Source: Alphaproteobacteria bacterium (GTDB lineage: Bacteria > Pseudomonadota > Alphaproteobacteria > Bin95). From it: 64,000 bases of DNA. Where the stretch lies: the NCBI GenBank assembly GCA_965205265.1, contig CBDBGH010000003.1, positions 5,248,001-5,312,000 of the forward strand, in the 5' to 3' direction. The translations under genes and the position numbers were made by a program. Positions 11,608 to 62,613 of the stretch are shown here, piece after piece (within the stretch, counting starts at the first letter, position 1; each line of letters starts with the position of its first letter). Below the pieces are notes generated by a model that was not told the origin of the DNA, ran no database searches, and was given only the letters and a program-made list of their open reading frames with translations.

Positions 11608-12944
11608 GGGGCTTACAAAGGTAAGTTGACATTGCCGTGTATCGTATCCAGTTCGGCCGCATGAGCGAGGTCTTCACGCACCGTCAGGTGGTATTCCGGC
11701 TTCTGCCGGGCCGCCGGTCCGTTTGGCGGCGTCTGGAGCGGGTTCTGGAGGCGCAGCGGCAGTTGTACAACGCCGCCCTTCAGGAACGCTGCGACGCCTG
11801 GCGTCTGGCCGGGCGGTCGCTCTCCTATATCGACCAGGCGAAGAGCCTGACGGTGTGCCGCCGGGAGGACCCCGAGATGGCGGCCGTTCCGGTCGCCGTG
11901 CAGCGCGGGACGCTGAAGCGCCTGGACGAGGCGATGAAGGGCTTCTTCCGGCGGGTGAAGGCGGGCCAGAAGCCGGGTTTTCCCCGGTTCCGGTCCCGCC
12001 GGCGGTTCGACAGCCTCTCCTTCGTCTCGGGGGTGAGGCTGGAGGACCGGGCCCGGCCCGGCGCGGACTGCGGGTCCGGCGCGGCCTGCCTGCGCCTTCC
12101 GGGTTTCGGCCCGCTTGCGGTCCGCCGGCGGGGCGGCAACCCGCATGGGGATGGCGAGCCGGTCTCGGCGGTGCTGAAGCGCGAGGCCGGCAAGTGGTAC
12201 GCCGTGGTCTGCTACCGGGTCCCGGCGCCGGCGGTCCACGAGGATGACGACAGCGTCATCGGGGTGGACATGAACGCTGGCCAGGTGGCGGCGAGCGGTC
12301 CGGGGCCGGAAGCCCGCCTGTTCCATGCCCCGGATACGCGGCGGCTGGAGGCGAGGGCGAAGCGCCTTGCCCGGCGTCTGGCGCGCCAGAAGCGCGGCTC
12401 CGGGCGCCGGGAGCGCACCCGCGCCCGTCTGGCGAAGACGAGGCGGCGCCTTTCCGGGATGCGGTGCGACTGGCGCCACCATGTCTCGCGGACAGTCGCC
12501 GACGCCGCCCATACCGTCGCCGTCGAGGACCTCCGGGTCCGGAACATGACGCGCAGCGCCCGGGGCACGACAGAGGAGCCGGGCGCCCGGGTCCGGCAGA
12601 AGGCCGGGCTCAACCGCGTCATCCTGGCCACGGGATGGGCGGAACTGCGCTTCATGTTCGGCTACAAGGCGGGACGGCTGCTCGCGGTCGACCCGGCCCA
12701 TACCAGCCGGACCTGCGCCGCCTGCGGCCATGTCGATGCCGGCTCGCGGCGTTCGCGGGCCGAATTCCAGTGCACGGCCTGCGGCCATGCGGACCATGCC
12801 GACGCGAATGCCGGCAGCAACATCCGGCGTCGGGGACTGGCGCTGCTGCACGGGGAGGGGCGTTCCGGCTTGCGGACCCCTGCGATCCGTGAAAACGCAG
12901 GGATGCTGGCGGCATGACGCCGTCAACTCATCTTTGTAAGGCCC
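11608..12944 (+). mobile_element. Non-autonomous TIR element carrying tnpB, copy 1
   Basis: TIRs GGGGCTTACAAAGGTAAGTTGAC / GTCAACTCATCTTTGTAAGGCCC; 8-bp TSD AAAGCAGA; 1337 bp. Confidence 0.95.
11661..12917 (+). CDS. tnpB: RNA-guided endonuclease TnpB (IS200/IS605 OrfB family)
   Basis: RuvC I GVDMN, RuvC II VAVEDL, Zn ribbon CAAC...CTAC, RuvC III HADANA; KPGFPRF. Confidence 0.93.
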   Translation: MSEVFTHRQVVFRLLPGRRSVWRRLERVLEAQRQLYNAALQERCDAWRLAGRSLSYIDQAKSLTVCRREDPEMAAVPVAVQRGTLKRLDEAMKGFFRRVKAGQKPGFPRFRSRRRFDSLSFVSGVRLEDRARPGADCGSGAACLRLPGFGPLAVRRRGGNPHGDGEPVSAVLKREAGKWYAVVCYRVPAPAVHEDDDSVIGVDMNAGQVAASGPGPEARLFHAPDTRRLEARAKRLARRLARQKRGSGRRERTRARLAKTRRRLSGMRCDWRHHVSRTVADAAHTVAVEDLRVRNMTRSARGTTEEPGARVRQKAGLNRVILATGWAELRFMFGYKAGRLLAVDPAHTSRTCAACGHVDAGSRRSRAEFQCTACGHADHADANAGSNIRRRGLALLHGEGRSGLRTPAIRENAGMLAA

Positions 12945-13845
12945 AAAGCAGACTATCGCCGCGCTGGCCTGGATGCCCGGGAAGATATCGGCGGCCGGGT
13001 CGATGACATGCAGGGAGGAAAGCCCCAGGGGACCCGCGGTGAAGAGGGTCCGCAGCACCGCCCCATAACCGGTATGGAGCCATTCCGCGGGCAGCAGCAT
13101 CGCGCCGTAGTCGCCGGGCCGGGCGAGTCCGCATATCGCAAGCATGAAATGGACGTAGAGCCCGGAAAGGCGGCTGAAGGGCAAACGCAGGTCGGCCGCC
13201 CGTGCCGCGGCAAGGTCTTTCCGGCCGCGGTCTATATCGTGGTGCCTCACCCATGGCGGGTTGCCGATAAACAGGGTCGGGCCCGGGGCGGGGCCCGGGT
13301 CGGCGGCGAGAAAGTCCCGGGTCTCCAGCCGGAGCCGGTCGCAGAGGCCGTTCAAGCGCGCGTTGGCGCGAAGCAGCCGGGCGCTGTTTCTGTCGGTCTC
13401 GAACGCGACAAGTTCGGCCGCCGGAAAGCGCTTGGCGGCGGCGAGACCGAACCGGCCCGTTCCGGCGCCCGGATCGACAATGCGCCGCGGCGATCCTGTG
13501 CGGGCGGCCCAATCCGTCATCGCGTCGACGATGGCGGACGGGGTCAGCACGGCGCCGGCGGTGCGGCGCTCGGCAGGACTGCGAAGGCGCATGAGCATTT
13601 CGCCCAGAGGGTCGCCGCCATCGGCAATCCGCCGGCGCAGGGCGGCGATGGCGGGGTCCGGACAGGGCCGACCGTCGTCGAGCGAACGGGCCAGCGCAAC
13701 CAGCGACTGCATGGAGGTCGGGGTTTGTAATGCCATGCCCGGACTGTCGCCGGGACACCTGAAAACTCAAAAAGCGGTCCGCGCTGTGCGGCACGGGGTC
13801 CGGGGCTTCGTTACCGGATCCCTGGACAGCGCCCGGCTGTTACTC

Positions 13846-19351: not shown

Positions 19352-20362
19352 TTCACGCCATTCACGGTCCGAGAGGCCGCTGCAGGACTGCGTTACCGTC
19401 TCGCCGGCGAACCGGCGCCGGAGGACATCCAGCGCCGCGGCGGAAAGCGTGGCGGCGTCCAGAACATAGTTCCGAAAGGCCTGACAGGTGACCGGGACCC
19501 ACCGGCTCACGATCTCATTGAGAATGGTATCCGCATAGGCGCGGATTTCGTGCTGCGCGTGGCTGTCGGACCGCAGCGACAGGAAATGCAGGAGGTTGTG
19601 GAGATCGCACTTCCAGTAGAACTGGGTGTACCAGTTGACCGGCAAGACGGTCCGGGCCAGCTCACGGGCAATGCCGGACCGGCTTTCGTCGATCCTGTTC
19701 CCGGCCTCATCCTCGTTGAGAAGATTGCGATAGACGCCGTGGGCGCGCTGGGAGAGCCAGTCCAGGCGTGAGAGGGCGTCCCGGGCCTCGTCGGCCTCGA
19801 GCGTCCCTTCGCGGCCTTGCCTGTTGCTGGAGGACTGTGCGGCCAGGGCCTCGGGACTCCCGTCGGCGGCCGCGGGCACGAACAGGTCCGGCTGGTGCTG
19901 TCGCGCGCGCCGCGAGAGGGTGCGCTCCTCAAGGAGGGCGCGCAGGTGATCGGGATCCGGGACGTAGTACTCCCGGTCCATCCGGGAGTAGCGGGCCGAG
20001 TATTCGTTCACATTCGCGGTGCGGTGCCGAATCCATTGCCGGGCGACAAAGATCGGCAGCTTGACGTGCAGCTTGATCTCGCACATCTCGAACGGCGTGC
20101 TATGTCGGTGGCGCAGAAGATACCGGATCAGCGCGGCGTCCTCCGACCGCCGTTTCGTGCCCCTGCCGTAGGAGACCCTGGCCGCCTGCACAACGGCGCT
20201 GTCGCTGCCCATGTAGTCGACCAGCCGGACGAAGCCGTGGTCGAGAACGGGGAAGGGCCTGTTAAGGATTGCCTCGAGATCGGGGACGGTGTCCCGTCCC
20301 GTCTCGAAGCGCCCGCGCGGCGCAAGGGATTCATCCGCGTCTGTTTCATTCCGGGAATGCAT
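19331..20362 (-). CDS. thyX: FAD-dependent thymidylate synthase
   Basis: QAARVSY, HSTPFE, PIFVARQWIRHRTANVNEYSARY, ELAR, HAQHEIR. Confidence 0.95.
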   Translation of the reverse strand: MHSRNETDADESLAPRGRFETGRDTVPDLEAILNRPFPVLDHGFVRLVDYMGSDSAVVQAARVSYGRGTKRRSEDAALIRYLLRHRHSTPFEMCEIKLHVKLPIFVARQWIRHRTANVNEYSARYSRMDREYYVPDPDHLRALLEERTLSRRARQHQPDLFVPAAADGSPEALAAQSSSNRQGREGTLEADEARDALSRLDWLSQRAHGVYRNLLNEDEAGNRIDESRSGIARELARTVLPVNWYTQFYWKCDLHNLLHFLSLRSDSHAQHEIRAYADTILNEIVSRWVPVTCQAFRNYVLDAATLSAAALDVLRRRFAGETVTQSCSGLSDREWRELEGLLQ

Positions 20363-20632
20363 GAGTGCCGTGACCTGCTCTTCATGTGGGTCAGGGAAAG
20401 CGGAACAATATAGAAGACGACGGCATTTGTCCGGGGCGGCGGAGACGGTGTCCCGCAACGGAAGAAATCCGGCACCCGGATCTTCCGCCGCCGGGACGGT
20501 CGGGGCTCAGCAGTCAAGAAGCGATTGGCGGCCGCGGTGCCGGCATCAGCTTTTGCCTTGACAGGATGCGCTGAAGTCCGTCCCCTTGTCAGCAGTCCAC
20601 ACTGGACATTCAAGGATTGCGAGAGCAATGCG

Positions 20633-21352
20633 ATGGATGAACTTGTCAAGCAATTGCTCGTCTCCGGCATATCCGGCCTGGTGGCGTCCGTGCTCATCCT
20701 GTTGGTAGCCAAGCCGCTCGTTCAAAGAGCTATTGAGCATTGGTTTGGGAAAATAGAAGAACGGGTTCGGATTGAAGGTGTGCTGATCGAAAAGCGCTAC
20801 ACAAGCAGCGCGAACGCATTAAAGGATCTCACGGAATTATACGAGGACTTGCAAAGGGAGTTGAGAGAGCTTAATTTTACAGAGGAAGAAAGCAGGAATC
20901 CATTATCAAAGATAGTGCAGGAGTCTCATCCCCGATATCGGGCACGCTTCCACATAATACGAAGCCAATTAGAAGTTGCAAACGACCTTCTTTCCTTTTA
21001 TAGCATAGAATTTGAACGATTGCTTCACGCTGACGTTATTCAAAAAATCATAGGAACAGAAACAACAAATGTCTCGGACTGCAAATATGCATATAGGACA
21101 ATATGGCGGGCCGCCCCTACCAACCTTCATGCTGTCCTGAGAATTGCAGCGGCATACGAGTTTTGGGATTCGGGTAACCAATATGCTGATCGGGCAAGAA
21201 AATGGGCTGAGGCGGATGGAAGGAGGATCGAGGAATTCCTGATTATGGAAATCAAAAGGATTCCTAGCGAAAACAAAGTTTTTTCACTGTATCTTGAAGA
21301 ATATGGCGCCAAGGAATTTTGGAAGCACCTTGATCCGTCTCTTGTAAAGTAA
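20633..21352 (+). CDS. Low-GC hypothetical protein with N-terminal TM helix
   Basis: ORF markedly more AT-rich than flanks; hydrophobic N-terminus. Confidence 0.7.
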   Translation: MDELVKQLLVSGISGLVASVLILLVAKPLVQRAIEHWFGKIEERVRIEGVLIEKRYTSSANALKDLTELYEDLQRELRELNFTEEESRNPLSKIVQESHPRYRARFHIIRSQLEVANDLLSFYSIEFERLLHADVIQKIIGTETTNVSDCKYAYRTIWRAAPTNLHAVLRIAAAYEFWDSGNQYADRARKWAEADGRRIEEFLIMEIKRIPSENKVFSLYLEEYGAKEFWKHLDPSLVK

Positions 21353-21519
21353 CGGGCGTTTGGAACGAGCCGGAGAGGTCCGGCCGCGACACGCCGGCGA
21401 AAGCGAAGGACGGTCTCGACAGGTCCTGGCGGGCGCTCAGGAATGCAGGAGGGGCCAAGCCGGGCACGCCGCCGGGCCTTCCCCCGAAAAAAGCGACCGA
21501 CCGTCTGGCGGGGCCGGCC

Positions 21520-22248
21520 TCAAGGCGACGGAGACGGCAGCGCCTCTTCCGGGGCTTCACGGACGGGGGGAGCGATTTCCATGCCGATTTCATCGCGGAG
21601 AGCGGCCTCGGCCTGCTCCCAGCCGTAGAAGGGACCCCAGAGCTCCGTCTCGCCGCTCTCCGGCAAGGAGCGTTCGCCGTCCAGCGTCCACCTCTCGACA
21701 GCCATGCTGTACACATGGCCGTTGGCCCACTCGCTGAATTCGTCGAGAATGGCGTTGCAGGACGAGAAATACTCCTTGCGGGCCTCGTCTTCGCCGATTG
21801 CCGCGCTGCGCTCCAGGAACCTCTCGTAGAGGTCGGCGGGCGGCGTGTAGAGGCCCGCAGTCCCGACGTCCCAGTCGTGTCCGGGATAGCGCATCGTGCC
21901 GGTCAGGGAATAGTGGACCGCGCCGTGGCTGTATCGTTGCACAACCAGGGGCCTCGGCGTCTGGAGGGCCGCTTCCTTCAGGGTCTCGCGCACATCCTCG
22001 TTTCGGGTGAACTCATGGAACGCGCCGGGTTCGCCGTGGTCCCAGAATGAACCGTAATCGTTGTCGAGCAGCACATACCCGACTATCAGCGCGTTGCCCT
22101 CCGGGGAAGGCCGGACGAGCAGGTCGTCCCTGAAGTCCGATGAATTCGAATAGTCGACCGGTTCGTGCTCGGTCAGGCAGCGGACGCCGGAGGGAAGATC
22201 GACACCCCAGTGCCGCTGGATGATGTCCGTAATGTCCTTGCGCGCCAT
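21520..22248 (-). CDS. MGE-type hypothetical protein (YxHG...WD motif)
   Basis: AGGAGAGG RBS; YSHGAVHYSL...WDVGTAG; W.NGHVY. Confidence 0.72.
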   Translation of the reverse strand: MARKDITDIIQRHWGVDLPSGVRCLTEHEPVDYSNSSDFRDDLLVRPSPEGNALIVGYVLLDNDYGSFWDHGEPGAFHEFTRNEDVRETLKEAALQTPRPLVVQRYSHGAVHYSLTGTMRYPGHDWDVGTAGLYTPPADLYERFLERSAAIGEDEARKEYFSSCNAILDEFSEWANGHVYSMAVERWTLDGERSLPESGETELWGPFYGWEQAEAALRDEIGMEIAPPVREAPEEALPSPSP

Positions 22249-31891: not shown

Positions 31892-32013
31892 GTGTATTGA
31901 GGAGGCGGCGGAAGCTGCCTCCCGGGCCGGCAAATGGAGCTGTGGAGGCACTCTTGCCGGGGTTGGTTCCGCAAATCAGAGCGTCACGGACCTTCGCGCC
32001 ATATACGGCGTCC

Positions 32014-32201
32014 CTTCAATGGTGGAGCGGGCGTGAAGCCCGCTGAAACGCCCCCATCATGGTGACGGAGCTGGATGCTCATCGTCCGCCTTCAATGTGT
32101 GGAGCGGGCCCGAGGCCCGCTGAAACACTGCGCTGCCAGCGGGGCTCGTTTCAAGATCACGCCCCTTCAATGGGTGGAGCGGGCGCGAGACCCGCTGAAA
32201 C
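32014..32201 (-). CRISPR. Mini CRISPR-like array: 3 imperfect 36-37-bp repeats, 2 spacers (40 and 38 bp)
   Basis: CTTCAATG..TGGAGCGGGC..GCCCGCTGAAAC at 32014, 32090, 32165; minus strand ends ATTGAAG. Confidence 0.85.
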
Positions 32202-32295
32202 ACCCTCCGGCCTCCCAACCCCTTGGCGGGCAAAGGTTGACGGGGCGGTTTTCGAGCGGTCCCCGCGGTTTTGGTATCGCCGAACCGGTCGAAAC
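32202..32295 (-). promoter_or_regulatory. CRISPR leader-like sequence
   Basis: AACCCCTTG...CAA.GG...TTTTCGAGCGGT shared with 47695-47740. Confidence 0.65.
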
Positions 32296-32661
32296 GGACT
32301 GGCGGTTCGATAGCGGCCGGCAGGCATCACGCATCACCACTGCCAGCGGCACCCGGCCAGGCCACAACGGAGGATCGACAATGTCAAAACAGCCACCGGG
32401 CAAGCCGGAGGCTCCAGCATAGCGCCACCGAGCGCAAATACACATGGACCGTGGTCGGGATCCGCTTCACGCGGGAGGAACGCCGAAGGGTCGGTGGCTG
32501 GATAGACGGACCGCGGCTGGCCGTCCGTCGGCTTGGCGTTGCACAAGGGGTTGGCCGAAGGGTCTTGCAAAGACCCGAACGGCCCTGGGGCTTTGGGTTT
32601 TCAGCGGCATCGGAGACAATCCTTCCCCTGGGCCATTTGCGGTGCTGGAGAGAGGGCCTGG

Positions 32662-35668: not shown

Positions 35669-36351
35669 GAACGAAAAGGGGTTCGATAACGGAGTGATCC
35701 GGAACAGAAGATCGGAGGTATCGGGAACGTTGCCGTAGGGGGCGGCGGGCGTCCCGCCGAGGGGGATTGCGGCGGAGGCGGCAAGGACCGCCACGAGCCG
35801 GATGCCGCGACGACATGCCGGCCGGGTGGCGGGGCGGTCCTTGTCCGGGGGCCGGTGCATACAGGGATATGCCGGGATGTTCGCCCGGATGGCAAGGGAT
35901 GCCGACTATCGGGTCCCCGGGAATTCCCGTTGGCCGGGCGGTTTTATGGGGAAACCGGGGCGAAAGCGTACGCGGCTGGAATTCAAAGGCGATAATATCG
36001 CCGGGAGGTCACCTGGTACAGGAATGGAGCCGACATGCAGGTCAACATGGAAATAGCCGAAGCGCGGGAAGGAGAGGTCCTCATCGTTGCGCCGTCCGGA
36101 CGTCTCGACAGCGCATCGTCGCCGGTCCTTGAGGGCCGCCTGAAGCAGAAGATCGGAAGCGGCGAAGCCAGGGCCCTCCTGCTCGACCTGGCTGGCCTGG
36201 CCTATATGAGTTCGGCGGGCATGCGGGTGCTCATGCTTGCAGCGAGGTCGAGCAAGTCCGAAGGCGTAGCCTTTGCCCTCTGCGGCGTGCGGCCGGAGGT
36301 CAACCAGATCCTGGCCATGAGCGGAATGGACCGGCTCTACACCTTCTACGA

Positions 36352-37688
36352 GGGGCTTACAAAGGTAAGTTGACATTGCCGTGTATCGTATCCAGTTCGG
36401 CCGCATGAGCGAGGTCTTCACGCACCGTCAGGTGGTATTCCGGCTTCTGCCGGGCCGCCGGTCCGTTTGGCGGCGTCTGGAGCGGGTTCTGGAGGCGCAG
36501 CGGCAGTTGTACAACGCCGCCCTTCAGGAACGCTGCGACGCCTGGCATCTGGCCGGGCGGTCGCTCTCCTATATCGACCAGGCGAAGAGCCTGACGGTGT
36601 GCCGCCGGGAGGACCCCGAGATGGCGGCCGTTCCGGTCGCCGTGCAGCGCGGGACGCTGAAGCGCCTGGACGAGGCGATGAAGGGCTTCTTCCGGCGGGT
36701 GAAGGCGGGCCAGAAGCCGGGTTTTCCCCGGTTCCGGTCCCGCCGGCGGTTCGACAGCCTCTCCTTCGTCTCGGGGGTGAGGCTGGAGGACCGGGCCCGG
36801 CCCGGCGCGGACTGCGGGTCCGGCGCGGCCTGCCTGCGCCTTCCGGGTTTCGGCCCGCTTGCGGTCCGCCAGCGGGGCGGCAACCCGCATGGGGATGGCG
36901 AGCCGGTCTCGGCGGTGCTGAAGCGCGAGGCCGGCAAGTGGTACGCCGTGGTCTGCTACCGGGTCCCGGCGCCGGCGGTCCACGAGGATGACGACAGCGT
37001 CATCGGGGTGGACATGAACGCTGGCCAGGTGGCGGCGAGCGGTCCGGGGCCGGAAGCCCGCCTGTTCCATGCCCCGGATACGCGGCGGCTGGAGGCGAGG
37101 GCGAAGCGCCTTGCCCGGCGTCTGGCGCGCCAGAAGCGCGGCTCCGGGCGCCGGGAGCGCACCCGCGCCCGTCTGGCGAAGACGAGGCGGCGCCTTTCCG
37201 GGATGCGGTGCGACTGGCGCCACCATGTCTCGCGGACAGTCGCCGACGCCGCCCATACCGTCGCCGTCGAGGACCTCCGGGTCCGGAACATGACGCGCAG
37301 CGCCCGGGGCACGACAGAGGAGCCGGGCGCCCGGGTCCGGCAGAAGGCCGGGCTCAACCGCGTCATCCTGGCCACGGGATGGGCGGAACTGCGCTTCATG
37401 TTCGGCTACAAGGCGGGACGGCTGCTCGCGGTCGACCCGGCCCATACCAGCCGGACCTGCGCCGCCTGCGGCCATGTCGATGCCGGCTCGCGGCGTTCGC
37501 GGGCCGAATTCCAGTGCACGGCCTGCGGCCATGCGGACCATGCCGACGCGAATGCCGGCAGCAACATCCGGCGTCGGGGACTGGCGCTGCTGCACGGGGA
37601 GGGGCGTTCCGGCTTGCGGACCCCTGCGATCCGTGAAAACGCAGGGATGCTGGCGGCATGACGCCGTCAACTCATCTTTGTAAGGCCC
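36352..37688 (+). mobile_element. Non-autonomous TIR element carrying tnpB, copy 2
   Basis: Same TIRs; 8-bp TSD TTCTACGA; two amino-acid differences from copies 1 and 3. Confidence 0.95.
36405..37661 (+). CDS. tnpB: TnpB endonuclease
   Basis: As copy 1, with R>H and R>Q substitutions. Confidence 0.93.
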   Translation: MSEVFTHRQVVFRLLPGRRSVWRRLERVLEAQRQLYNAALQERCDAWHLAGRSLSYIDQAKSLTVCRREDPEMAAVPVAVQRGTLKRLDEAMKGFFRRVKAGQKPGFPRFRSRRRFDSLSFVSGVRLEDRARPGADCGSGAACLRLPGFGPLAVRQRGGNPHGDGEPVSAVLKREAGKWYAVVCYRVPAPAVHEDDDSVIGVDMNAGQVAASGPGPEARLFHAPDTRRLEARAKRLARRLARQKRGSGRRERTRARLAKTRRRLSGMRCDWRHHVSRTVADAAHTVAVEDLRVRNMTRSARGTTEEPGARVRQKAGLNRVILATGWAELRFMFGYKAGRLLAVDPAHTSRTCAACGHVDAGSRRSRAEFQCTACGHADHADANAGSNIRRRGLALLHGEGRSGLRTPAIRENAGMLAA

Positions 37689-37726
37689 TTCTACGATGAC
37701 CGTGAGGCTGGCGTGGCGGGTATGGC

Positions 37727-44406: not shown

Positions 44407-44616
44407 TCAGCCGGCCGCCAGCTGTATGTCTTCAATCTCTTCGAGTTTCATGGGTCCCCTGTCGGCAGGCCAGTCGATTTCTTCCGCGTTGAACACCTTC
44501 ACGGCAAGCACCCTGGTTCCGTCCTTCAGCCTGACATCGACCACCTGGTAGCCCATAGCGGTTTCCGGCAGGCCGCACAGATGCCGGGTCCAGTGATCGG
44601 GAAGAGGCAGTCTCAT
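44407..44616 (-). CDS. Small hypothetical protein (LPETxMGYQ motif)
   Basis: LPETAMGYQVVDVRLKDG. Confidence 0.65.
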   Translation of the reverse strand: MRLPLPDHWTRHLCGLPETAMGYQVVDVRLKDGTRVLAVKVFNAEEIDWPADRGPMKLEEIEDIQLAAG

Positions 44617-44675
44617 GGTTGTTGAAGGAGACATCCCGATGCACCTTGTCCTCTGGACAACCGGGCGAAGGAGCC

Positions 44676-44703
44676 TTGCCAAGCAGCCGCAGGAACCTAT
44701 AAT
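44676..44703 (+). promoter_or_regulatory. Sigma70 promoter of tmRNA
   Basis: TTGCCA-N16-TATAAT. Confidence 0.65.
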
Positions 44704-44721
44704 GGAAAGCGCTGGATTTAT

Positions 44722-44970
44722 CCAGCTATGGCGATAAACGCTGTGCGGAATAAGCGTTGCGGACCCGGGGGCAGTACCCGGCGCCTCCACCATTTCCTTC
44801 GGGGGCGAAACAGGATCGACGTGCGCGGTAAAGGCACTGTCTTCGCCCGGCATGGTACCACCGTTATCGGGCCGACCACACAGGTGCGAACGACAATCAG
44901 GAATTCGCCCTCGCTGCCGCCTAGACGCGGCAAGCGCGGTCTGGAGGGCACCGGGCAACAGAAGCCCTCC
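44722..44970 (+). ncRNA. ssrA: Circularly permuted two-piece tmRNA (alphaproteobacterial type)
   Basis: Acceptor piece ends GGCGCCTCCACCA (44792); 8-nt intervening segment; coding piece starts GGGGGCGAAACAGGATCGAC (44801); tag ANDNQEFALAAA* at 44886-44924; outer ends approximate. Confidence 0.93.
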
Positions 44971-45120
44971 GTATTCCTGCCGCAGGCGGCATGAGGCTGT
45001 CATTTTGTCTTTGCAAGACTCGAGTGAAACACGATGACCGGCAAGCGGGAACGCTGGCCAGCTTGCTTTCGATAAAGGACATCGCTGCCGAACGGCAGGG
45101 ACCCTCGCAGCCAAAACTGC

Positions 45121-47683
45121 CTTCAATGGAGTGGCGGGCGGGGAGCCCGCTGAAACCCGGACGCCATCCAGGGCGAAAACGCCCCGCTCACATTCCTTCT
45201 CAATGATAGTGTAATGCGGGGGATGGGACGTTCTGCCGGGAGAATCCCGATGCCCCGAATTATGTTCGGCGTTGTCCGCCGGACTCCGCGCCGTCGGGGT
45301 CTGTCACCTTCAATGTGATGTGCCGCGGCCTACGGGGCGGAGCAGGAGCTGGTTGGCGGGCACGCGTCCGCAGAAGAGCTTCCTTCAATGTGGCCTCCGC
45401 CGCCCGGGCCGGCGAGGCGCGGATCTATCAACCTCCAGTTCTGCCGGTTGATGGTTCTTCAATGGGAACGGCCTCCGGTGCCCAAGGCCGGGGAGTGGAT
45501 ATTCCGCGGAACATGCCGGACTGGGAACCTCGCCCTTGATGTGTGCCCCGGCAGTGAAGCCGGGGAAAAGGCGGACAATCGGAACCCGAACGGAGAATGC
45601 GTGGGTCCTTCAATGTGCCCCGGCGCCAACGCCGGGGAGAGGCGCGACCAGGTCGCGCGGGTCACTCTGAGCCGCCTTCCTTCAATGGTGTGCCCCGGCG
45701 CCAACGCCGGGGAGAGGGGACAAGACCATGACAACGTCCAGCCTTCACCAGCACCTTCAATGTGTGTGGCCCTTGCCGACCGGGGCCGGAGGGATCGGAC
45801 AGGATCCGGGCATGGGGCGGGTGGGAGACCGGCCCTTCAAACAAAGGGGGATTGATCGCGATGAGCCGGAGCGGTCATGGGGAAAGCGGGCCATGAACCC
45901 GCTGCAACTGATGCCGCCGACGATGCCGAACGCCAAAATGACCTCTCTTCAATGGGTGGGGGGAAGCGAGCAGGACGCCCGCTGCAGGTCCCTGCCCTGC
46001 AACCCGTTAGCGGTTTCGCTACGGAGATCGACGCGTTCCCGGCGGAGCTGATTGTCCTTCAATAGGAAAAGCTGACGAGATATCTGCTGCAGGGGCATCC
46101 TCGGGTGTACTTCTTGGCAGTAGATCCGGACGGGCCGCCGAGCCAGGTCCGGAAATCGGGATATTGCTGTCCGATCTGGGCGTCGCCCCTTCAATGTGGG
46201 ACGGACGTGATGCCCGCGCTGTGGCCATCCGGGTCCAATGCCAGGGGCGCCGGGCCTGGTGGCTCCTTCAATATGCGATGTCGGGTGAATTGCCCGCGGC
46301 ATCAAGGCTCGGCGTAGCCGTCAGGATCGGGCCTCCGCAAATCCTTGCATGCGATGTGGAGCGGGTGCTCAGGCCGCAGGGGTTGAAACGGGCCTGCAAG
46401 GCGCCCTGTGCAGCAAGGTCCGGGAATCCCGGCTTCCCTCTCATGGCGAAGCGATCAAATGCGCGCTCTTCAATGTTTGGCCCGTGGGCAGGAGGCCTGT
46501 TGTCCCGGCCGCAGCGCGATGGGCCAGACGCGGCGCATCCATCGCTTTGGATGGGGTCCGAAGCAGGAGCGGGCATCGCTGCCGGGTGCATGAGCCGGAA
46601 ACGGCTGTCATGCATGGCCAGATACCTTCAATGGGTGGAAGCGGGCGTGGAGCCCGCTGACGTGGCATCGGCCCGCTTCGGGGCAGCGTCCAAATCGACC
46701 CTTCAATGTGTGAGGCGGGGACGAAGCCCGCCTGTAAAACCGCCATCGCAAGGCGGGCTGCTTTGGCCAGACACAGCCTTCAATGTGTGTGGGGTGCGTG
46801 GAGCCGCCGCTCCTTGAAAAGATGGCCCATCCGGCCTCACTGCGTAACCCTTCAATGATGTGTGGCGGACGGCGGGCCCGCGCTTTAACCCCATACCTGC
46901 GGATGCTTCACGCTCGCTTTTGCTGGCACTTCAATGTGCACGGCGGGCACTGCGCCTGCTTTAACCGACTTCCCGAGAGCCTCTAGGACCTGACAAGCTT
47001 CAATGGTGTGTGCAGCGGCCAATGCGCCCACTGCCGGTTTCCGCTGCCGAAGCCAGAGGCGCCGAGGAGGATCCGGAGCCTCAATGGCGCTGCGGGCGCT
47101 TCGCCCGCTGTCGGACCCCGGTCGCGCCGGCCGCGACGCGCGTCATAAGCTCGCTTCAATGAGAGCTGCGGGCCCTGCGCCCGCTGCCGGCGTGGAACGG
47201 TGGGTGGAAAGGAGGGTAGGTATGCGGACCGCTTCAATGGTGCTGCGGGCGCTGAGAGCAGGCAGGCTGTTATCCGCACTTTCCCATGCTTCAATGTGTG
47301 CTGCGGGCCCAGGGCCCGCCGCCGGAATTCTCTCGTACCTTACCGTGGGTGGGCCAATCGATGCTTCAATGTGCTGCGGCACTACGCGCGCTGCGGGGCA
47401 AGCCCTACGTGCTGAGATCAGTGCATGTGATGAGCTTCAATGTGTGCCCGCTGCCGGGGTTACTCGATACATCACGTCAAGCACTCTGTCGGTCGCTTCA
47501 ATGTGCTGCGGGCGATGGGCCCGCTGCCGGGCTGCGTTTCCTCGGGGAAGGAGGACTCCAGCCACTCGCTTCAATGTGGGGAGCTGCGGGCCCTGCGCCC
47601 GCTGCCGGTTGGCCTGCTGGTGCCGCTACCCGGCCTAGGCGGATAGCTTCAATGTGTGCGGCGGGCTCTGTGCCCGCTGCCGG
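45121..47683 (-). CRISPR. Orphan CRISPR-like array of about 30 units with highly divergent repeats
   Basis: 26 exact CTTCAAT anchors plus about 6 degenerate ones, mostly 70-80 bp apart, most followed by a GC hairpin and a unique ~35-40-bp spacer. Confidence 0.85.
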
Positions 47684-47880
47684 GGCCGCCGGGGAACCCC
47701 TTGCTGGACAAGGGCTGCGGAACCGTTTTTCGAGCGGTGCTGCCGAAGAGCGCCGGCGCTGTCCCGAAATCGGGTCCAGGAGTTGGCCGGAAGCGCCGCA
47801 AGGCCTTGCCACCCCTCGCCTTCCGGGATTTCGAGCGCCCCCGGGGGTTTCCATGTGCTGCCGGGCCGCTCGGAAACGGC
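47684..47880 (-). promoter_or_regulatory. CRISPR leader-like sequence
   Basis: AACCCCTTG..CAAGGG..TTTTCGAGCGGT and TTCGAGCG..GGGGTTT..CCGCTCG; similar to 32202-32295. Confidence 0.65.
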
Positions 47881-48145
47881 CGGCGGGGACCGGACGCGAC
47901 CCATCGCGCGCGGTCAATGGGACCGGGGCGCTGTCGGCCCCGGAGAAAAGCCGGCATTGCCGCGCGGTGCGGACAGGCGTGGAGCGCCTGCCGCCGACGC
48001 GGAACGCCGACGCTGGTCATCGTGCCCACCATGTGAAACAGCAACAGCAGCTGGCCCCGTCGGGCAGCGCCATGAACAGTTTACCACACGCGCACCTGGG
48101 CGCGGACGGCAAACCGCTTTGTCCTGCCTCTCCGGGCGGGAGAGG

Positions 48146-57989: not shown

Positions 57990-58351
57990 GGGGCGTGTTC
58001 CTCCGGACACAGGGTTGGCGGCTGAAGTCTCCGGGAGAAGCCTAGTCCGGCGCACCGGGAAAGTGCAACTCCCGGACCTGAATTGCCGGAACGCCGAGGT
58101 GCGGGCGGACATGGTCATGCGGACCGGGAACATTCCGCCAGGACGCTGCCGGCGACGCTGAAACACCGGGAGAGCGGGAAGGCTCCTGATGGCCCGAGTA
58201 GCCCGAGTGAACTGCCGCTGCGACCGAACGCGCATCGCATGGTCCATTTTCGGCGCGCCCAGGTCGGTTAGTATTCCCTGTGGGCGCGGCCCGATCCACC
58301 CGAAAGACGGGCGCAGCGGAGCCGCCGCACAAACCCTGGGAGGAAAGGAAA

Positions 58352-59688
58352 GGGGCTTACAAAGGTAAGTTGACATTGCCGTGTATCGTATCCAGTTCGG
58401 CCGCATGAGCGAGGTCTTCACGCACCGTCAGGTGGTATTCCGGCTTCTGCCGGGCCGCCGGTCCGTTTGGCGGCGTCTGGAGCGGGTTCTGGAGGCGCAG
58501 CGGCAGTTGTACAACGCCGCCCTTCAGGAACGCTGCGACGCCTGGCGTCTGGCCGGGCGGTCGCTCTCCTATATCGACCAGGCGAAGAGCCTGACGGTGT
58601 GCCGCCGGGAGGACCCCGAGATGGCGGCCGTTCCGGTCGCCGTGCAGCGCGGGACGCTGAAGCGCCTGGACGAGGCGATGAAGGGCTTCTTCCGGCGGGT
58701 GAAGGCGGGCCAGAAGCCGGGTTTTCCCCGGTTCCGGTCCCGCCGGCGGTTCGACAGCCTCTCCTTCGTCTCGGGGGTGAGGCTGGAGGACCGGGCCCGG
58801 CCCGGCGCGGACTGCGGGTCCGGCGCGGCCTGCCTGCGCCTTCCGGGTTTCGGCCCGCTTGCGGTCCGCCGGCGGGGCGGCAACCCGCATGGGGATGGCG
58901 AGCCGGTCTCGGCGGTGCTGAAGCGCGAGGCCGGCAAGTGGTACGCCGTGGTCTGCTACCGGGTCCCGGCGCCGGCGGTCCACGAGGATGACGACAGCGT
59001 CATCGGGGTGGACATGAACGCTGGCCAGGTGGCGGCGAGCGGTCCGGGGCCGGAAGCCCGCCTGTTCCATGCCCCGGATACGCGGCGGCTGGAGGCGAGG
59101 GCGAAGCGCCTTGCCCGGCGTCTGGCGCGCCAGAAGCGCGGCTCCGGGCGCCGGGAGCGCACCCGCGCCCGTCTGGCGAAGACGAGGCGGCGCCTTTCCG
59201 GGATGCGGTGCGACTGGCGCCACCATGTCTCGCGGACAGTCGCCGACGCCGCCCATACCGTCGCCGTCGAGGACCTCCGGGTCCGGAACATGACGCGCAG
59301 CGCCCGGGGCACGACAGAGGAGCCGGGCGCCCGGGTCCGGCAGAAGGCCGGGCTCAACCGCGTCATCCTGGCCACGGGATGGGCGGAACTGCGCTTCATG
59401 TTCGGCTACAAGGCGGGACGGCTGCTCGCGGTCGACCCGGCCCATACCAGCCGGACCTGCGCCGCCTGCGGCCATGTCGATGCCGGCTCGCGGCGTTCGC
59501 GGGCCGAATTCCAGTGCACGGCCTGCGGCCATGCGGACCATGCCGACGCGAATGCCGGCAGCAACATCCGGCGTCGGGGACTGGCGCTGCTGCACGGGGA
59601 GGGGCGTTCCGGCTTGCGGACCCCTGCGATCCGTGAAAACGCAGGGATGCTGGCGGCATGACGCCGTCAACTCATCTTTGTAAGGCCC
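58352..59688 (+). mobile_element. Non-autonomous TIR element carrying tnpB, copy 3
   Basis: Same TIRs; 8-bp TSD AAAGGAAA. Confidence 0.95.
58405..59661 (+). CDS. tnpB: TnpB endonuclease
   Basis: Protein identical to copy 1. Confidence 0.93.
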   Translation: MSEVFTHRQVVFRLLPGRRSVWRRLERVLEAQRQLYNAALQERCDAWRLAGRSLSYIDQAKSLTVCRREDPEMAAVPVAVQRGTLKRLDEAMKGFFRRVKAGQKPGFPRFRSRRRFDSLSFVSGVRLEDRARPGADCGSGAACLRLPGFGPLAVRRRGGNPHGDGEPVSAVLKREAGKWYAVVCYRVPAPAVHEDDDSVIGVDMNAGQVAASGPGPEARLFHAPDTRRLEARAKRLARRLARQKRGSGRRERTRARLAKTRRRLSGMRCDWRHHVSRTVADAAHTVAVEDLRVRNMTRSARGTTEEPGARVRQKAGLNRVILATGWAELRFMFGYKAGRLLAVDPAHTSRTCAACGHVDAGSRRSRAEFQCTACGHADHADANAGSNIRRRGLALLHGEGRSGLRTPAIRENAGMLAA

Positions 59689-59701
59689 AAAGGAAACCAT
59701 C

Positions 59702-60385: not shown

Positions 60386-60714
60386 GCTGCAGCGGGCTCA
60401 CCGCCCGCAACACACATTGACGCGGATCGAGTGCGGCGAAGTCGGCAAGCTTCAACGCGACGAACCGCCTCCGGCTCTGCCGAGCGGAGTCGAGCGGTTC
60501 GATGGTTCAAGGGATCCTGCGGCCGCCCCAGGTCCCGGCAGGCGGAGGCAGACACTAGGTTGTCAGTCTGCTGTGCAATTGAAGGGTTTCGAAACCGGCG
60601 AGTGCCCGCAACCGGGCTTGCGCCATCACATTGAAGGACCGCTGTTCCGGATATTCCAATGCGGTCGCTGAAGAGCGGACAGGATGACTCCCTGTCCGCC
60701 TTGCACATTGAAGC
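60386..60714 (+). CRISPR. Degenerate CRISPR-like mini-array (4-5 units)
   Basis: Hairpin followed by ATTGA(C/AG) at 60416, 60578, 60630, 60707. Confidence 0.6.
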
Positions 60715-60742
60715 TCCATCAGAGCCTCGATATGGCGCGGTT

Positions 60743-61762
60743 TCATCGAGGTTTCGCCGGTATTCCGGCGTGTTTCTCCAGATGGGATTCGAAGCGGCGG
60801 GTCGCCTGCTCCCAGGAGCGCGCCCGGGCCGCCGCCACGCAGGCCCGGGGATCGAGGCCGAGAGCCCTGCGGGCCGCGGCTCCCAGATCCCTGTCAAGAA
60901 TGCCGCTGCGTCCGTGCTCGACGACATCCAGCGGCCCGGTCACCGGAAATGCCGCGACCGGAACCCCGCAGGCCATCGCCTCGAGCATGACCAGCCCGAA
61001 GGTATCGGTCACGCTCGGGAACACGAGGACATCGGCCGATGAGATGTGGCGCACGAGGTCCGCGCCGGACTTCTCGCCGAGGAACAGGGCGTCCGGATAG
61101 CGCGCCTCCAGTCGCCGGCGGTCCGGGCCGTCCCCGATGACAACCTTCGTGCCCTCCAGGTCCAGTCCCAGGAAGGCATCGAGGTTCTTCTCCACCGCGA
61201 CCCGACCGAGCGCCAGAAAGACGGGCCGGGCAGCGTCGATGGCGTCCCCCGGTCCCGGCCTGAACAGGGTCGTGTCCACGCCCCGCGGCCAGAGGACGAG
61301 ATTCGCGAAGCCGCGCCGGGCCAGCCGGTCTCGCTGGCTGGCGGTAGGCACCATGGTCCGTGCCGCCCGGCCGTGAAAGCGACGCAGCCAGACATAGGTC
61401 CATGCGACAGGAACCGGTATCCGGGCCCGGACATATTCCGGGAACTGCGTGTGGAAGGCGGTGGTGAAGGGGAAACCGTTGGCGAGGCACCAGTACCGCG
61501 CTGCCTGGCCGATCGGCCCTTCCGTGGCGATATGAACGCAGTCGGGCCGGAATGACCGGAGCGCAGCGCGAACGCCCCGGCGCGCGCCGAGCGCGAGCCG
61601 GATGGAGGGATAGGAGGGGCAGGGCACCGAGCGGAATCGCGTCGGCGTGACTAGTTCCACGATGTGACCGAACGCCTCGAGGGTCTCGGCGGTCTTGCCG
61701 AGCGTGCGGACAACGCCGTTGACCTGCGGGTGCGCCGCGTCGGTCGCTATGAGGATACGCAT
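60743..61762 (-). CDS. GT4 family glycosyltransferase
   Basis: TDA..PQVNGV, HIATEGP, RGVD, GRVA.EKN, FPS.TDTFG...LEA.ACG.PV. Confidence 0.93.
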   Translation of the reverse strand: MRILIATDAAHPQVNGVVRTLGKTAETLEAFGHIVELVTPTRFRSVPCPSYPSIRLALGARRGVRAALRSFRPDCVHIATEGPIGQAARYWCLANGFPFTTAFHTQFPEYVRARIPVPVAWTYVWLRRFHGRAARTMVPTASQRDRLARRGFANLVLWPRGVDTTLFRPGPGDAIDAARPVFLALGRVAVEKNLDAFLGLDLEGTKVVIGDGPDRRRLEARYPDALFLGEKSGADLVRHISSADVLVFPSVTDTFGLVMLEAMACGVPVAAFPVTGPLDVVEHGRSGILDRDLGAAARRALGLDPRACVAAARARSWEQATRRFESHLEKHAGIPAKPR

Positions 61763-61856
61763 CGGCCGTCCTGTCGCTCCTGGAAGGCGTCCGGTTGCCG
61801 AACGCTCTCCGTGCCATTCGGCCCGGTCCGGAGCGCCTGGTTACGAAGCTCCTGCG

Positions 61857-62613
61857 TCATGCCGCCCTCCTCCCGGCGGCGGCCGCGACCATCGCCGGCG
61901 CCCCGAAAATCCCAAACGCAAACCGGACCCCGCGGGACGCCCACACACATTGAAGCGTGTTCGGATCGTCAATATCGATGAACCCGAAGCTCCCCGGTTT
62001 CCCCGGCCTTCGGCACCGGGCGCACCGTGAAGCCTGCGTGGACTGTGCGTCCGGGATCGAGGACGGCGGTTTCCTCTGGAGAATCGCCGTCCCCTGCACA
62101 ACGCGCCTTCCAACGCCGTTCCATTCCTCCCTGGACAGCCCCTTGAACACCCAGGCGGACGGGTCCGCCCGGGTGGCTCTCTCAAGGGCGGTCGCCGTAT
62201 CCCACGGTCCATCGGGATTCAGGCGGAAATTCGCCGCCACAGCGGCCAGACGCGACGGTTCCGGATGGCCTTCCGCGATGGCCCGCCATTCATCGGCGCC
62301 CGGTTCGTCGCCTTTCAGCCGGCGCTCGTACAGGGCGGCGGCACGGTCGCAATGAGCCGAGTTGCCCTCTCGAAACGGGGAATCCGGATCGCTCAACAGG
62401 GCGTGCATGAGCCGGTCCGGCAGCGCCGAGAGGTCGGCACCGACCGGGATGGCGGCCACGAAGCCGCCGGCCCATCCGGGCGCCCGGGCTTCCTCCATAT
62501 TGTAGAGGAGGGTCGACATGATGTGGGCAACGGATTCCGGAATGGCGAAGTCGTGCTCGAACAGGCCAACGGCCCTGGCGACATGTGCCTGCAGGGAGCC
62601 GGCGGTCCCCCCT
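61857..62613 (-). pseudogene. Hypothetical gene (AIPVGADLS motif), 5' end cut by IS1634
   Basis: Frame open up to the inferred IS boundary. Confidence 0.5.
61918..61956 (+). repeat. Solitary CRISPR-repeat-like unit
   Basis: ...CCCGCGGGACGCCCACACACATTGAAGC matches the array repeat ends. Confidence 0.5.

What the first reader, a model, noticed from the sequence alone, without database searches (positions are those of the whole stretch)
45121..47880. Large cas-less CRISPR-like array with hypervariable repeats that keep only the ATTGAAG handle and a hairpin
Seen: 26 exact CTTCAAT anchors (45121...47647) plus about 6 degenerate ones, mostly at a 70-80-bp period with unique spacers. I found no two identical repeats, even next to the leader. 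The linker between handle and stem varies in length (G, GTG, GGTG, GTGTG...). Stems fall into blocks: GCCCCGGC..GCCGGGG (45535-45716), GCGGGC..GCCCGCTGA (45121, 46626-46740) and GCTGCGGGC..CCCGCTGCCGG (47000-47683). No cas gene occurs in the 64 kb. Known: ATTGAAG(C) repeat ends resemble type I-G (I-U) arrays; normal acquisition copies repeats faithfully; MGEs use mini-arrays to borrow host Cascade and repeat mimics (Racrs) to inhibit it. Inference: selection on handle plus structure suggests a functional RNA cassette (decoy crRNAs, multi-host-compatible crRNAs or regulatory guides) rather than simple decay. Standard CRISPR finders would probably miss it.
Basis: partly seen in the sequence, partly recalled or inferred. 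Interest (0 to 1): 0.85.

Follow-up and report, generated by a model that had tools for sequence, protein, structure and literature searches.

The report
Orphan CRISPR array with non-identical repeats
This is a real type I-G CRISPR array that sits far from its cas genes, and almost every repeat in it differs while the short crRNA tag and a hairpin are kept, so it shows naturally what the processing enzymes need; it is not a new kind of system.

Summary
There are 26 exact CTTCAAT anchors at 45121-47647. A covariance model finds 26 units plus 5 weaker ones. No two repeats are identical (24 of 24 distinct), against 32 of 34 identical in the genome's cas-adjacent array. Contigs from two studies reproduce the sequence, so it is not a sequencing error.

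It is a type I-G CRISPR array read on the minus strand. It has the same ATTGAAG tag, spacer length and spacer GC as the genome's canonical I-G array, and a homologous leader at 47684-47850.

"Cas-less" is true only locally. The genome has a complete I-G locus fused to a III-B Cmr module, a second effector-only I-G locus about 240 kb from the array, one I-C Cas1 and three type II Cas1 genes. At least six such heterogeneous arrays lie in one low-GC region.

The tag is 96-100% conserved, the stems covary, and loops and linkers vary freely. The array is a mosaic of at least 3 repeat types shared with sister arrays.

Best reading: an old, rarely extended orphan array whose repeats drift under constraint for tag plus hairpin and is probably still used in trans. 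Decay is also evident: about a third of units are broken, and a congener without I-G genes carries a similar array. The decoy and regulator readings are not supported.

The parts
45120..47683 (-). Body of the orphan type I-G CRISPR array, about 31 repeat-spacer units. The crRNA sense is the minus strand. Each repeat reads 5' flank, stem, loop, stem, C/A-rich linker, then ATTGAAG(C/G).
   Evidence: 26 exact CTTCAAT. 26 model hits at E<=0.003 plus 5 weaker. 24 of 24 repeats distinct. Hairpin enrichment and covariation.
47684..47850 (-). Leader. A CCTTG..CAAGG palindrome lies at about 47695-47714, a GCTCGAAAA box at 47726-47738, and a second GCTCGAAA box with a CCCGGGG run at 47828-47847.
   Evidence: MAFFT alignment with the leaders of the cas-adjacent I-G array, three other orphan arrays of this genome and one from congener G002.
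46997..47683 (-). Leader-proximal block of 10 units with a GCGGGC/GCCCGC stem, a CCGGCA 5' flank and tag ATTGAAGC. Three units have a broken or half-deleted hairpin (47231, 47363, 47434).
45382..45794 (-). Block with CCCCGGCG/CGCCGGGG-type stems, the same repeat type as array C3:5059519-5060182 next to the second I-G locus.
45120..45156 (-). Trailer-end unit of the GTTTC-AGCGGGC type, 148 nt from the 3' end of the tmRNA gene. Its best partner is the unit at 46625, ten units away.
44672..44972 (+). Alphaproteobacterial two-piece tmRNA gene, convergent with the array. It is a neighbour, not part of the array, and is one of two tmRNA genes in the genome.
   Evidence: Rfam RF01849, 239.5 bits. The second copy at C3:4192816-4193057 is 87.6% identical.
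32013..32330 (-). Sister mini-array: 3 non-identical units (32013-32201) with a homologous leader (box at 32250).
   Evidence: 46.6, 43.3 and 41.7 bits.
60386..60714 (+). Leaderless remnant of 3-4 degenerate units on the opposite strand.
   Evidence: 60386 at 34.6 bits; 60605, 60669 and 60532 weak.
61926..61956 (+). Solitary degenerate unit, separated from the remnant above by a GT4 glycosyltransferase gene (60743-61762, minus strand).
   Evidence: (19.3 bits).

Best explanation
The feature is a genuine type I-G CRISPR array with its own leader, transcribed from the minus strand towards the tmRNA gene, and separated from any cas operon.

It belongs to a family of at least six such arrays in a low-GC accessory region of the chromosome. 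That region also holds an effector-only I-G locus (Cas3g, Cas7g, Csb2).

The repeats are heterogeneous for two reasons (inferred). First, the array is old and gains spacers only rarely, in trans, from the single Cas4g/Cas1g-Cas2 module. Without frequent duplication of the first repeat nothing keeps the repeats alike, so each copy drifts. Second, segments have been exchanged with sister arrays, which makes it a mosaic of at least three repeat types.

The drift is filtered. The 8-nt tag (ATTGAAG plus C or G) and a GC-rich hairpin survive, while loops and the slippage-prone C/A linker change freely. This is the pattern expected if pre-crRNA is still cut at the hairpin by a Csb2 (Cas5-Cas6 fusion) and the tag is still needed for loading into I-G Cascade and perhaps the III-B Cmr complex. 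Units with a broken hairpin or tag are dead.

Shown: identity as an I-G array, leader homology, heterogeneity, the constraint pattern, the mosaic structure and the cas inventory.

Inferred: transcription, processing in trans, current use, and the age argument.
For: Identity as an I-G array:
- The canonical array at C3:3410125-3412529 has the same tag and lies between Cas4g/Cas1g (751.9 bits) and Csb2/Cas7g.
- The leaders of six arrays align, with the same boxes in each.
- The distance from the previous tag to the loop centre is 50-55 nt in 10 of 12 scored units. The other 2, both with 5-bp stems, give 42.5 and 44.5. The canonical array gives 51.4 +/- 1.3.
- Spacer-side GC is 0.614, against 0.607 in the canonical array and 0.68 in the genome.

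Constraint:
- Tag columns are 96-100% identical in the 26 units. Stem arms average 0.73-0.76 and the 5' flank 0.54.
- Stems of 6 bp or more occur on 16 of 24 repeat sides against 2 of 24 spacer sides in this array. Over all heterogeneous arrays the figures are 33 of 48 against 3 of 47, and 21% for random genome windows.
- Covariation exceeds every shuffle (0 of 500) and all slid controls.

Possible trans partners:
- A second I-G effector locus with open frames lies at C3:5045981-5053036.
- A III-B Cmr1-6 module lies beside the canonical array.

Orphan arrays still acquire spacers faithfully:
- The two leader-proximal repeats are identical, with different spacers, in arrays C3:5059519 and C3:5227497.

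Mosaic structure and blocks:
- The same repeat types occur in different arrays.
- Position and similarity are only weakly correlated (Spearman -0.14, permutation p=0.03).

Spacers look like real spacers:
- Window 45278-45307 matches 28 of 30 nt in an ORF with a weak prohead-protease hit in G012, and the homologous place in G010. A second place in G012 matches 27 of 29 nt.
- Window 47403-47434 matches 30 of 32 nt in G014.
- Both matches end flush against the tag.

No genome among the 185,579 species scanned has a uniform array of the GCGGGC-type repeat. This argues for divergence in place rather than import of ready-made repeats.
Against: - There is no RNA evidence, so transcription and processing are untested.
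- The first two repeats of this array differ, so it shows no recent acquisition.
- About a third of units are damaged. Four of 24 exact-tag units have no stem of 5 bp or more, one has lost half its hairpin, and 5-7 have damaged tags.
- Congener G010 carries a comparable mixed array with 13 exact tags. No Csb2, Cmr2, Csm1 or Cas6 was found in that 99%-complete genome. This degree of tag and hairpin retention can therefore persist without an I-G partner, or that partner was lost recently.
- Linkers of 2-14 nt would give 5' handles of variable length, and it is unknown whether Csb2 tolerates this.
- Units were found through the tag, and the model alignment is fitted to the structure. Both bias the counts towards conservation.
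- Template switching within quasi-palindromes could keep stem arms complementary without any selection on the RNA (established mutational mechanism, recalled).
- If two spacers are only about 6-7% diverged from relatives of their sources, uniform neutral drift cannot by itself explain loops that differ in most pairs of units (inference).
Confidence: 0.55

Rival explanations
1. Dead relic. The array was orphaned long ago, is no longer transcribed or used, and is simply decaying. Tag and stems look conserved because decay is incomplete, because units were found through the tag, and because palindromes repair themselves by intrastrand template switching.
For: Broken and half-deleted hairpins and damaged tags affect about a third of units. 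The first two repeats are not identical. G010 has a similar array without detectable I-G or type III genes and without the leader box. Leaderless remnants lie at 60386-61956 in the same window. No sigma-70-like promoter was found in the leader (weak evidence for a GC-rich alphaproteobacterium).
Against: All leader boxes are intact, although loops of neighbouring repeats differ at most positions. The tag is 96-100% conserved against 54% for the 5' flank. Covariation exceeds the controls. Sister arrays in the same region have acquired spacers recently. An intact effector-only I-G locus needs a source of crRNA.
Confidence: 0.3
2. Repeat diversity is produced or favoured actively. Loops and linkers may be hypermutable, through hairpin extrusion, microsatellite slippage or error-prone gap filling at integration. 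Alternatively, diversity may be selected because non-identical repeats cannot recombine, which freezes the spacer set.
For: Within the leader-proximal block the arms and 5' flank are nearly constant while almost every loop and linker differs. Linkers are (CA)n or C-run tracts. Two spacers are only 6-7% diverged from sequences in congeners while their flanking repeats are the most damaged. The canonical array shows tandem spacer duplications of the kind that identical repeats allow.
Against: The same host faithfully copies the canonical repeat, with 32 of 34 identical. It also copies the first repeats of two orphan arrays faithfully. No mechanism was identified. The age bound rests on two or three short matches.
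Confidence: 0.1
3. Decoy or regulatory RNA cassette of a mobile element. On this reading it would be repeat mimics that titrate Cascade (Racr-like), or cr-like guides that regulate host genes.
For: The array lies in a low-GC, IS-rich accessory region next to a second tmRNA gene. The repeats keep only the tag and a hairpin.
Against: A complete, homologous adaptation leader is present. The unique spacers have canonical length and composition. No spacer matches the own genome at E<=0.01. The repeats differ from the host's active repeat outside the tag. No phage or plasmid backbone genes were identified beside it.
Confidence: 0.05

Closest known systems
Canonical type I-G (formerly I-U) CRISPR array of the same genome and genus (C3:3410125-3412529, and arrays in G009, G011, G015, G016)
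   Same: Same ATTGAAG tag, a GC-rich hairpin upstream of it, the same spacer length and GC, and a homologous leader.
   Different: Canonical repeats are uniform (32 of 34 identical) and flanked by cas genes. Here 24 of 24 differ, the linker length varies and the nearest I-G genes are about 240 kb away.
Orphan or isolated CRISPR arrays used in trans, for example E. faecalis CRISPR2 (PMC5491264) and an isolated I-F array in P. aeruginosa (PMC13142298). For both I saw only the search listing and the start of the abstract.
   Same: An array without adjacent cas genes in a genome, or species, that has a matching cas locus elsewhere.
   Different: Those arrays are described with ordinary conserved repeats, as far as the abstracts and my recollection go. 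Here nearly every repeat differs.
Degenerate-repeat cr-like RNAs: standalone repeat units and mini-arrays (bioRxiv 10.1101/2023.03.03.530964; passages read) and CreA of CreTA (Cheng et al. 2022; seen only in that paper's reference list, content recalled)
   Same: Repeats that have diverged from the cognate repeat yet keep what the Cas proteins need.
   Different: Those have one or two repeats, lie beside cas genes, and carry a spacer that partially matches a promoter. This feature has about 31 units, a leader and no self-match.
RNA anti-CRISPRs (Racrs), repeat mimics on phages and plasmids (recalled; no paper read)
   Same: Repeat-like RNAs that are not next to cas genes.
   Different: Racrs mimic the host repeat closely and lack an adaptation leader and a long series of normal spacers. 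None of this fits here.

Membership tests
Type I-G CRISPR array | Regular repeat-spacer period with unique spacers of the subtype's length | tested here: met
   The period is 75.2 +/- 2.2, against 72.8 +/- 1.3 in the canonical array. The distance from tag to next loop centre is 50-55 in 10 of 12 scored units (the other 2, with 5-bp stems, give 42.5 and 44.5), against 51.4 +/- 1.3. Spacers are unique.
Type I-G CRISPR array | Repeat ends in the same 8-nt crRNA tag as the cas-adjacent I-G array | tested here: met
   ATTGAAG columns are 96-100% identical in 26 units. The eighth base is G or C, half each. Canonical repeat.
Type I-G CRISPR array | Palindromic stem-loop upstream of the tag | tested here: met
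   20 of 24 exact-tag units have a stem of 5 bp or more. The hairpin is enriched over spacer sides (p=2.7e-5). Covariation.
Type I-G CRISPR array | Leader homologous to that of a cas-adjacent array | tested here: met
   Six-way alignment with shared boxes.
Type I-G CRISPR array | Near-identical repeats within the array | tested here: not met
   24 distinct 33-mers among 24 units, against 3 distinct among 34 in the canonical array. TRF finds nothing.
Type I-G CRISPR array | Adjacent I-G cas genes | tested here: not met
   No hit in the window. The I-G loci are at C3:3.41 Mb and C3:5.046-5.053 Mb.
Type I-G CRISPR array | Spacers derived from mobile elements | tested here: inconclusive
   Three of about 31 spacers have 93-94% matches in relatives. 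One falls in a weak prohead-protease ORF, one in an unannotated contig and one in mfd. Nothing turned up in the phage or plasmid collections. The canonical array used as a control also gave few hits.
Type I-G CRISPR array | Transcription and processing into crRNAs | not testable with these tools
   No RNA run holds the stretch.
RNA anti-CRISPR / decoy repeats | Close mimic of the host's active repeat, carried by a phage or plasmid, without leader or normal spacers | tested here: not met
   The repeats differ from the canonical one outside the tag. A leader is present. Spacers are normal. No phage or plasmid genes were found beside it.
CreTA / cr-like regulatory mini-array | One or two degenerate repeats with a spacer partially matching a promoter in the own genome, beside cas genes | tested here: not met
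   About 31 units; no self-match at E<=0.01; not beside cas genes.
IS-derived palindromic elements (PATE/MITE, REP-like) | Units resemble the ends of a resident transposon | tested here: not met
   The ends of the three TnpB elements in the window are unrelated to the repeat.

The most novel reading that the evidence does not exclude
Repeat diversity is an evolved property, not decay. A family of leader-bearing I-G arrays has individualised its repeats down to the 8-nt tag plus a generic GC hairpin. This would make the arrays immune to repeat-repeat recombination, a frozen long-term memory. It would also make them readable by several effectors at once (two divergent Csb2 proteins and a III-B Cmr complex), which would mean that Csb2 recognises shape and tag rather than sequence.
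Probability: 0.15. Interest if true: 0.75.

Novelty: new variant of a known kind. Interest (0 to 1): 0.5.

Why it matters
CRISPR repeats within an array are normally near-identical, and array finders depend on that. Here at least six arrays in one genome, and similar ones in two congeners and one alphaproteobacterial metagenome-assembled genome (MAG), keep a leader, a tag and a hairpin while nearly every repeat differs.

If these arrays are processed, they form a ready-made natural mutagenesis series. It would define what the poorly studied Cas5-Cas6 fusion Csb2 and a co-resident Cmr complex need in a repeat.

They would also show how arrays evolve when acquisition is rare. Such arrays are probably under-counted in surveys.

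If they are not processed, they give a clear picture of how orphan arrays decay. Either way the finding is an unusual form of a known system, not a new system.

Tried and rejected
- RNA evidence. The look-up of sequencing runs listed no RNA holder. The one run guessed to be RNA (X8) laid nothing. This says nothing about expression.
- Strain comparison. Run X4, from a second study, turned out identical over the parts it covers, so no substitution rates could be measured.
- Protospacers in public phages and plasmids. Only chance-level hits appeared, with best E 0.2-0.8.
- PAM. The flanks of the few spacer matches gave no consistent motif.
- Promoter scan of the leader. No sigma-70-like site was found. 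This is not informative for this organism.
- Orthologous array in relatives. Only the tmRNA part of 44600-48100 is conserved in 40 relatives.
- Source of the GCGGGC-type repeat. A scan of genome contigs gave 21 loci. Twenty were single, apparently chance matches. One alphaproteobacterial MAG had a 3-unit heterogeneous mini-array.
- Transposon-end hypothesis. The TnpB element ends are unrelated to the repeat.
- Leader-box hits elsewhere in the genome. The four at C3:696526, 799455, 3163167 and 4816821 have no repeat-like units beside them; by eye they look like coding sequence, which I did not check.
- CTTCAAT hits at 20771, 44430 and 49250. They lack the following G and any hairpin and are chance.
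- Island attachment site. No extra partial tmRNA copy was found.
- Apparent trade-off between linker and spacer length. It came from two misparsed 5-bp stems.
- Literature. Four full-text searches found no description of large arrays with individually different repeats. They were, with terms including type I-G, orphan, degenerate repeats, repeat heterogeneity, divergent repeats, isolated arrays and away from cas genes. This is not proof that none exists, because subscription journals are largely missing from the library. The key survey of arrays away from cas genes was not found, and I know it only from memory.
- Supplementary files were not consulted.
Full report
**1. Observation**

The 7-mer CTTCAAT occurs 36 times in the window, against 3.5 +/- 1.6 in shuffles. 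Of these, 26 lie on the + strand between 45121 and 47647. Neighbouring anchors are mostly 69-81 bp apart, and the longer gaps hold degenerate units.

I built a covariance model from 27 well-formed repeats. It finds 26 units in 45000-47800 at E<=0.003. The whole-window scan adds 5 weaker ones.

The 24 units with the exact 8-mer give 24 different 33-mers. Tandem Repeats Finder sees no array.

Contigs from two independent studies reproduce the covered parts without a single differing letter. The heterogeneity is therefore in the DNA and is not an error.

**2. What it is**

Genome-wide, the 8-mer occurs 189 times against about 46 expected, and it clusters into seven arrays.

One of these, at C3:3410125-3412529, is an ordinary CRISPR array. 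Of its 34 units, 32 share the same 33-mer. On one side it has a Cas4g/Cas1g fusion (751.9 bits). On the other it has Csb2 and Cas7g. This defines the tag ATTGAAG(C) as the 3' end of a type I-G repeat, and it fixes the sense strand.

In the window the sense strand is the minus strand. Directly upstream in that sense, at 47684-47850, lies a leader. It aligns with the leader of the canonical array, with those of three other orphan arrays and with one from congener G002. All share a GCTCGAAAA box, a CCTTG..CAAGG palindrome and a second upstream box.

The distance from one tag to the next loop centre is 50-55 nt in 10 of the 12 scored units. The other 2, both with 5-bp stems that are probably misparsed, give 42.5 and 44.5. 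The canonical array gives 51.4 +/- 1.3. Spacer-side GC is 0.614 against 0.607 in the canonical array, and both are below the genome's 0.68. ORFs that overlap the array have no Pfam match.

This is a leader-bearing I-G CRISPR array.

**3. Context: 'cas-less' holds only locally**

None of the six cas families I searched hits inside the window. The chromosome, however, carries:
- the complete I-G locus just described
- a type III-B module (Cmr1, Cas10/Cmr2, Cmr3, Cmr4, Cmr6 and a TM1812-family protein) directly beside it
- a second, effector-only I-G locus with Cas3g, Cas7g and Csb2 at C3:5045981-5053036
- a I-C Cas1 and three type II Cas1 genes

All heterogeneous arrays lie between C3:4.94 and 5.31 Mb. 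They are at C3:4943357, 5059519, 5137159, 5227497 and 5280014 (window 32013), plus this one and a leaderless remnant at window 60386-61956. They fall within or at the edge of a stretch of lowered GC, 0.658-0.675 against a mean of 0.682, that spans about 4.75-5.30 Mb.

The immediate neighbours are a tmRNA gene, an IS21 pair, three copies of a TnpB element, nucleotidyltransferase/HEPN genes and ankyrin-repeat genes.

**4. Relatives**

In 40 relatives only the tmRNA part of the region is conserved. Four congeners have uniform arrays of the canonical repeat. G010 and G002 have arrays with mixed repeats. One alphaproteobacterial MAG has a 3-unit mixed mini-array.

**5. Anatomy of the heterogeneity**

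In sense orientation a repeat is: a 5' flank, a 5-8 bp GC stem, a 3-9 nt loop, the second arm, a C/A-rich linker of 2-14 nt, then the tag.

Among the 20 units of this array with a stem of 5 bp or more there are 13 different inner stems, 18 loops and 20 linkers.

Stems of 6 bp or more occur on 16 of 24 repeat sides but only 2 of 24 spacer sides. Over all heterogeneous arrays the figures are 33 of 48 against 3 of 47, and random genome windows give 21%.

On the model-fitted alignment of the 26 units, 78.2% of cells pair, against 65.9 +/- 1.9 in shuffles and 32-45% with slid partners. Seventeen cells carry a change on both sides, against 5.9 +/- 1.9. That alignment leans towards the structure, and the units were found partly through the tag.

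Column identity is 96-100% for ATTGAAG, 0.73-0.76 on average for the arms and 0.54 for the 5' flank. The eighth tag base is C in the leader-proximal block and mostly G elsewhere.

**6. Mosaic and history**

The array holds at least three repeat types.
- A GCGGGC/GCCCGC type with a CCGGCA flank makes up the 10 leader-proximal units.
- A GTTTC-AGCGGGC type occurs at 46625 and at the trailer end (45120). The mini-array at 32013 and the array at C3:4943357 have this type too.
- A CCCCGGCG/CGCCGGGG type occurs at 45382-45794. It is also the type of the array 6 kb from the second I-G locus.

Similarity falls only weakly with distance (Spearman -0.14, p=0.03). Some best partners are 6-10 units apart. 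Simple stepwise copying of an evolving first repeat is therefore not enough, and exchange between arrays is implied (inference).

Faithful copying does occur in this genome. The two leader-proximal repeats of the arrays at C3:5059519 and C3:5227497 are identical and carry different spacers. In the second of these the copied repeat already has a weakened hairpin. Linker length adds to the period, as expected for indels inside existing repeats.

**7. Spacers and age**

No spacer matches the own genome at E<=0.01, and none matches the phage or plasmid collections.

Three spacers match relatives.
- 45278-45307 matches 28 of 30 nt in an ORF with a weak Peptidase_S78 (prohead protease) hit in G012, and the homologous place in G010. 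A second place in G012 matches 27 of 29 nt.
- 47403-47434 matches 30 of 32 nt on a small contig of G014.
- 46023-46052 matches 28 of 30 nt in mfd of a distant genome, which may be chance.

The first two matches end flush against the tag.

If they are genuine, those spacers have drifted by at most about 7%. Uniform neutral drift since acquisition then cannot by itself account for loops that differ in most pairs of units. Either loops and linkers mutate faster, or arms and tag are held back, or both (inference from few data).

**8. Function**

Evidence for continued use in trans:
- The leader is intact.
- The constraint pattern matches what a Cas5-Cas6 fusion and a Cmr complex need, namely hairpin plus tag. 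The same pattern separates the canonical repeats of different species in the genus.
- Sister arrays have acquired spacers recently.
- An effector-only I-G locus has no uniform array of its own.

Evidence against:
- There are no RNA data.
- This array shows no recent acquisition.
- About a third of units are damaged.
- G010 keeps a comparable array although no Csb2, Cas10 or Cas6 was found in it.

I put continued, partial function at about 0.55, a dead relic at 0.3, active or selected diversification at 0.1, and a decoy or regulator at 0.05.

**9. Comparison and novelty**

It works like, and by five of eight tests is, a type I-G array. It fails the tests for near-identical repeats and adjacent cas genes, and the spacer-origin test is inconclusive.

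Orphan arrays used in trans are known, as are degenerate repeats in one- or two-repeat cr-like elements (abstracts; passages). My four literature searches found no description of long arrays in which every repeat differs while tag and hairpin persist. The library is incomplete, so this is weak evidence that none exists.

I rate it a new variant of a known kind, of moderate interest.

**10. Limits**

Supplementary files were not used. Gene calls outside the tested ORFs are my own rough GC3-based calls.

Noticed in passing
window 44672-44972 and G000:C3:4192816-4193057: The genome has two full-length alphaproteobacterial tmRNA genes that are only 87.6% identical. The one in the window sits at the edge of the low-GC accessory region, among IS elements.
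   Followed up: partly
window 11599-12948, 36343-37692, 58343-59692: Three 99.85%-identical copies of a roughly 1.35-kb element encode only a 426-aa TnpB (OrfB_IS605 plus Cas12f1-like TNB domains). Their terminal sequences are inverted repeats and are unrelated to the CRISPR repeat.
   Followed up: partly
window 60386-61956 (+): A leaderless remnant of 3-4 degenerate I-G units and one solitary unit are separated by a GT4 glycosyltransferase gene (60743-61762, minus strand). It looks as if a gene now lies inside a former array.
   Followed up: partly
G000:C3:3399000-3416400: This is a composite locus. A type III-B Cmr module, Cas4g/Cas1g, the uniform array and the I-G effector genes lie together, so one array probably feeds two effector types.
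   Followed up: partly
G000:C3:3410504-3410531 versus C3:3788607-3788634: A spacer of the canonical I-G array matches the own chromosome 28 of 28 nt, about 0.7 kb beyond a type II Cas1 gene (C3:3786943-3787920). Another spacer matches C3:5102686 at 92% over 37 nt. These are possible self-targeting or targeting of resident mobile DNA.
   Followed up: no
G000:C3:3786943-3787920 and C3:5450592-5451569: Two type II Cas1 genes give identical scores and so are probably a duplicated segment. A third lies at C3:5124491-5125426.
   Followed up: no
G000:C3:4.75-5.30 Mb: About 550 kb has lowered GC (0.658-0.675 against 0.682). It holds all the heterogeneous arrays, the effector-only I-G locus and one of the three type II Cas1 genes. 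It may be a large acquired or integrated element.
   Followed up: partly
L013 7179-9317 (-) = G000:C3:5048179-5050317: In the second I-G locus the Cas7g domain occupies only residues 374-546 of a 712-aa open frame. No Csx17/Cas8 family was recognised in the N-terminal half. This could be a fused or unrecognised large subunit, or an ORF-calling artefact.
   Followed up: no
window 20001-22000: A local GC dip to 0.58 in a 66-68% GC background.
   Followed up: no
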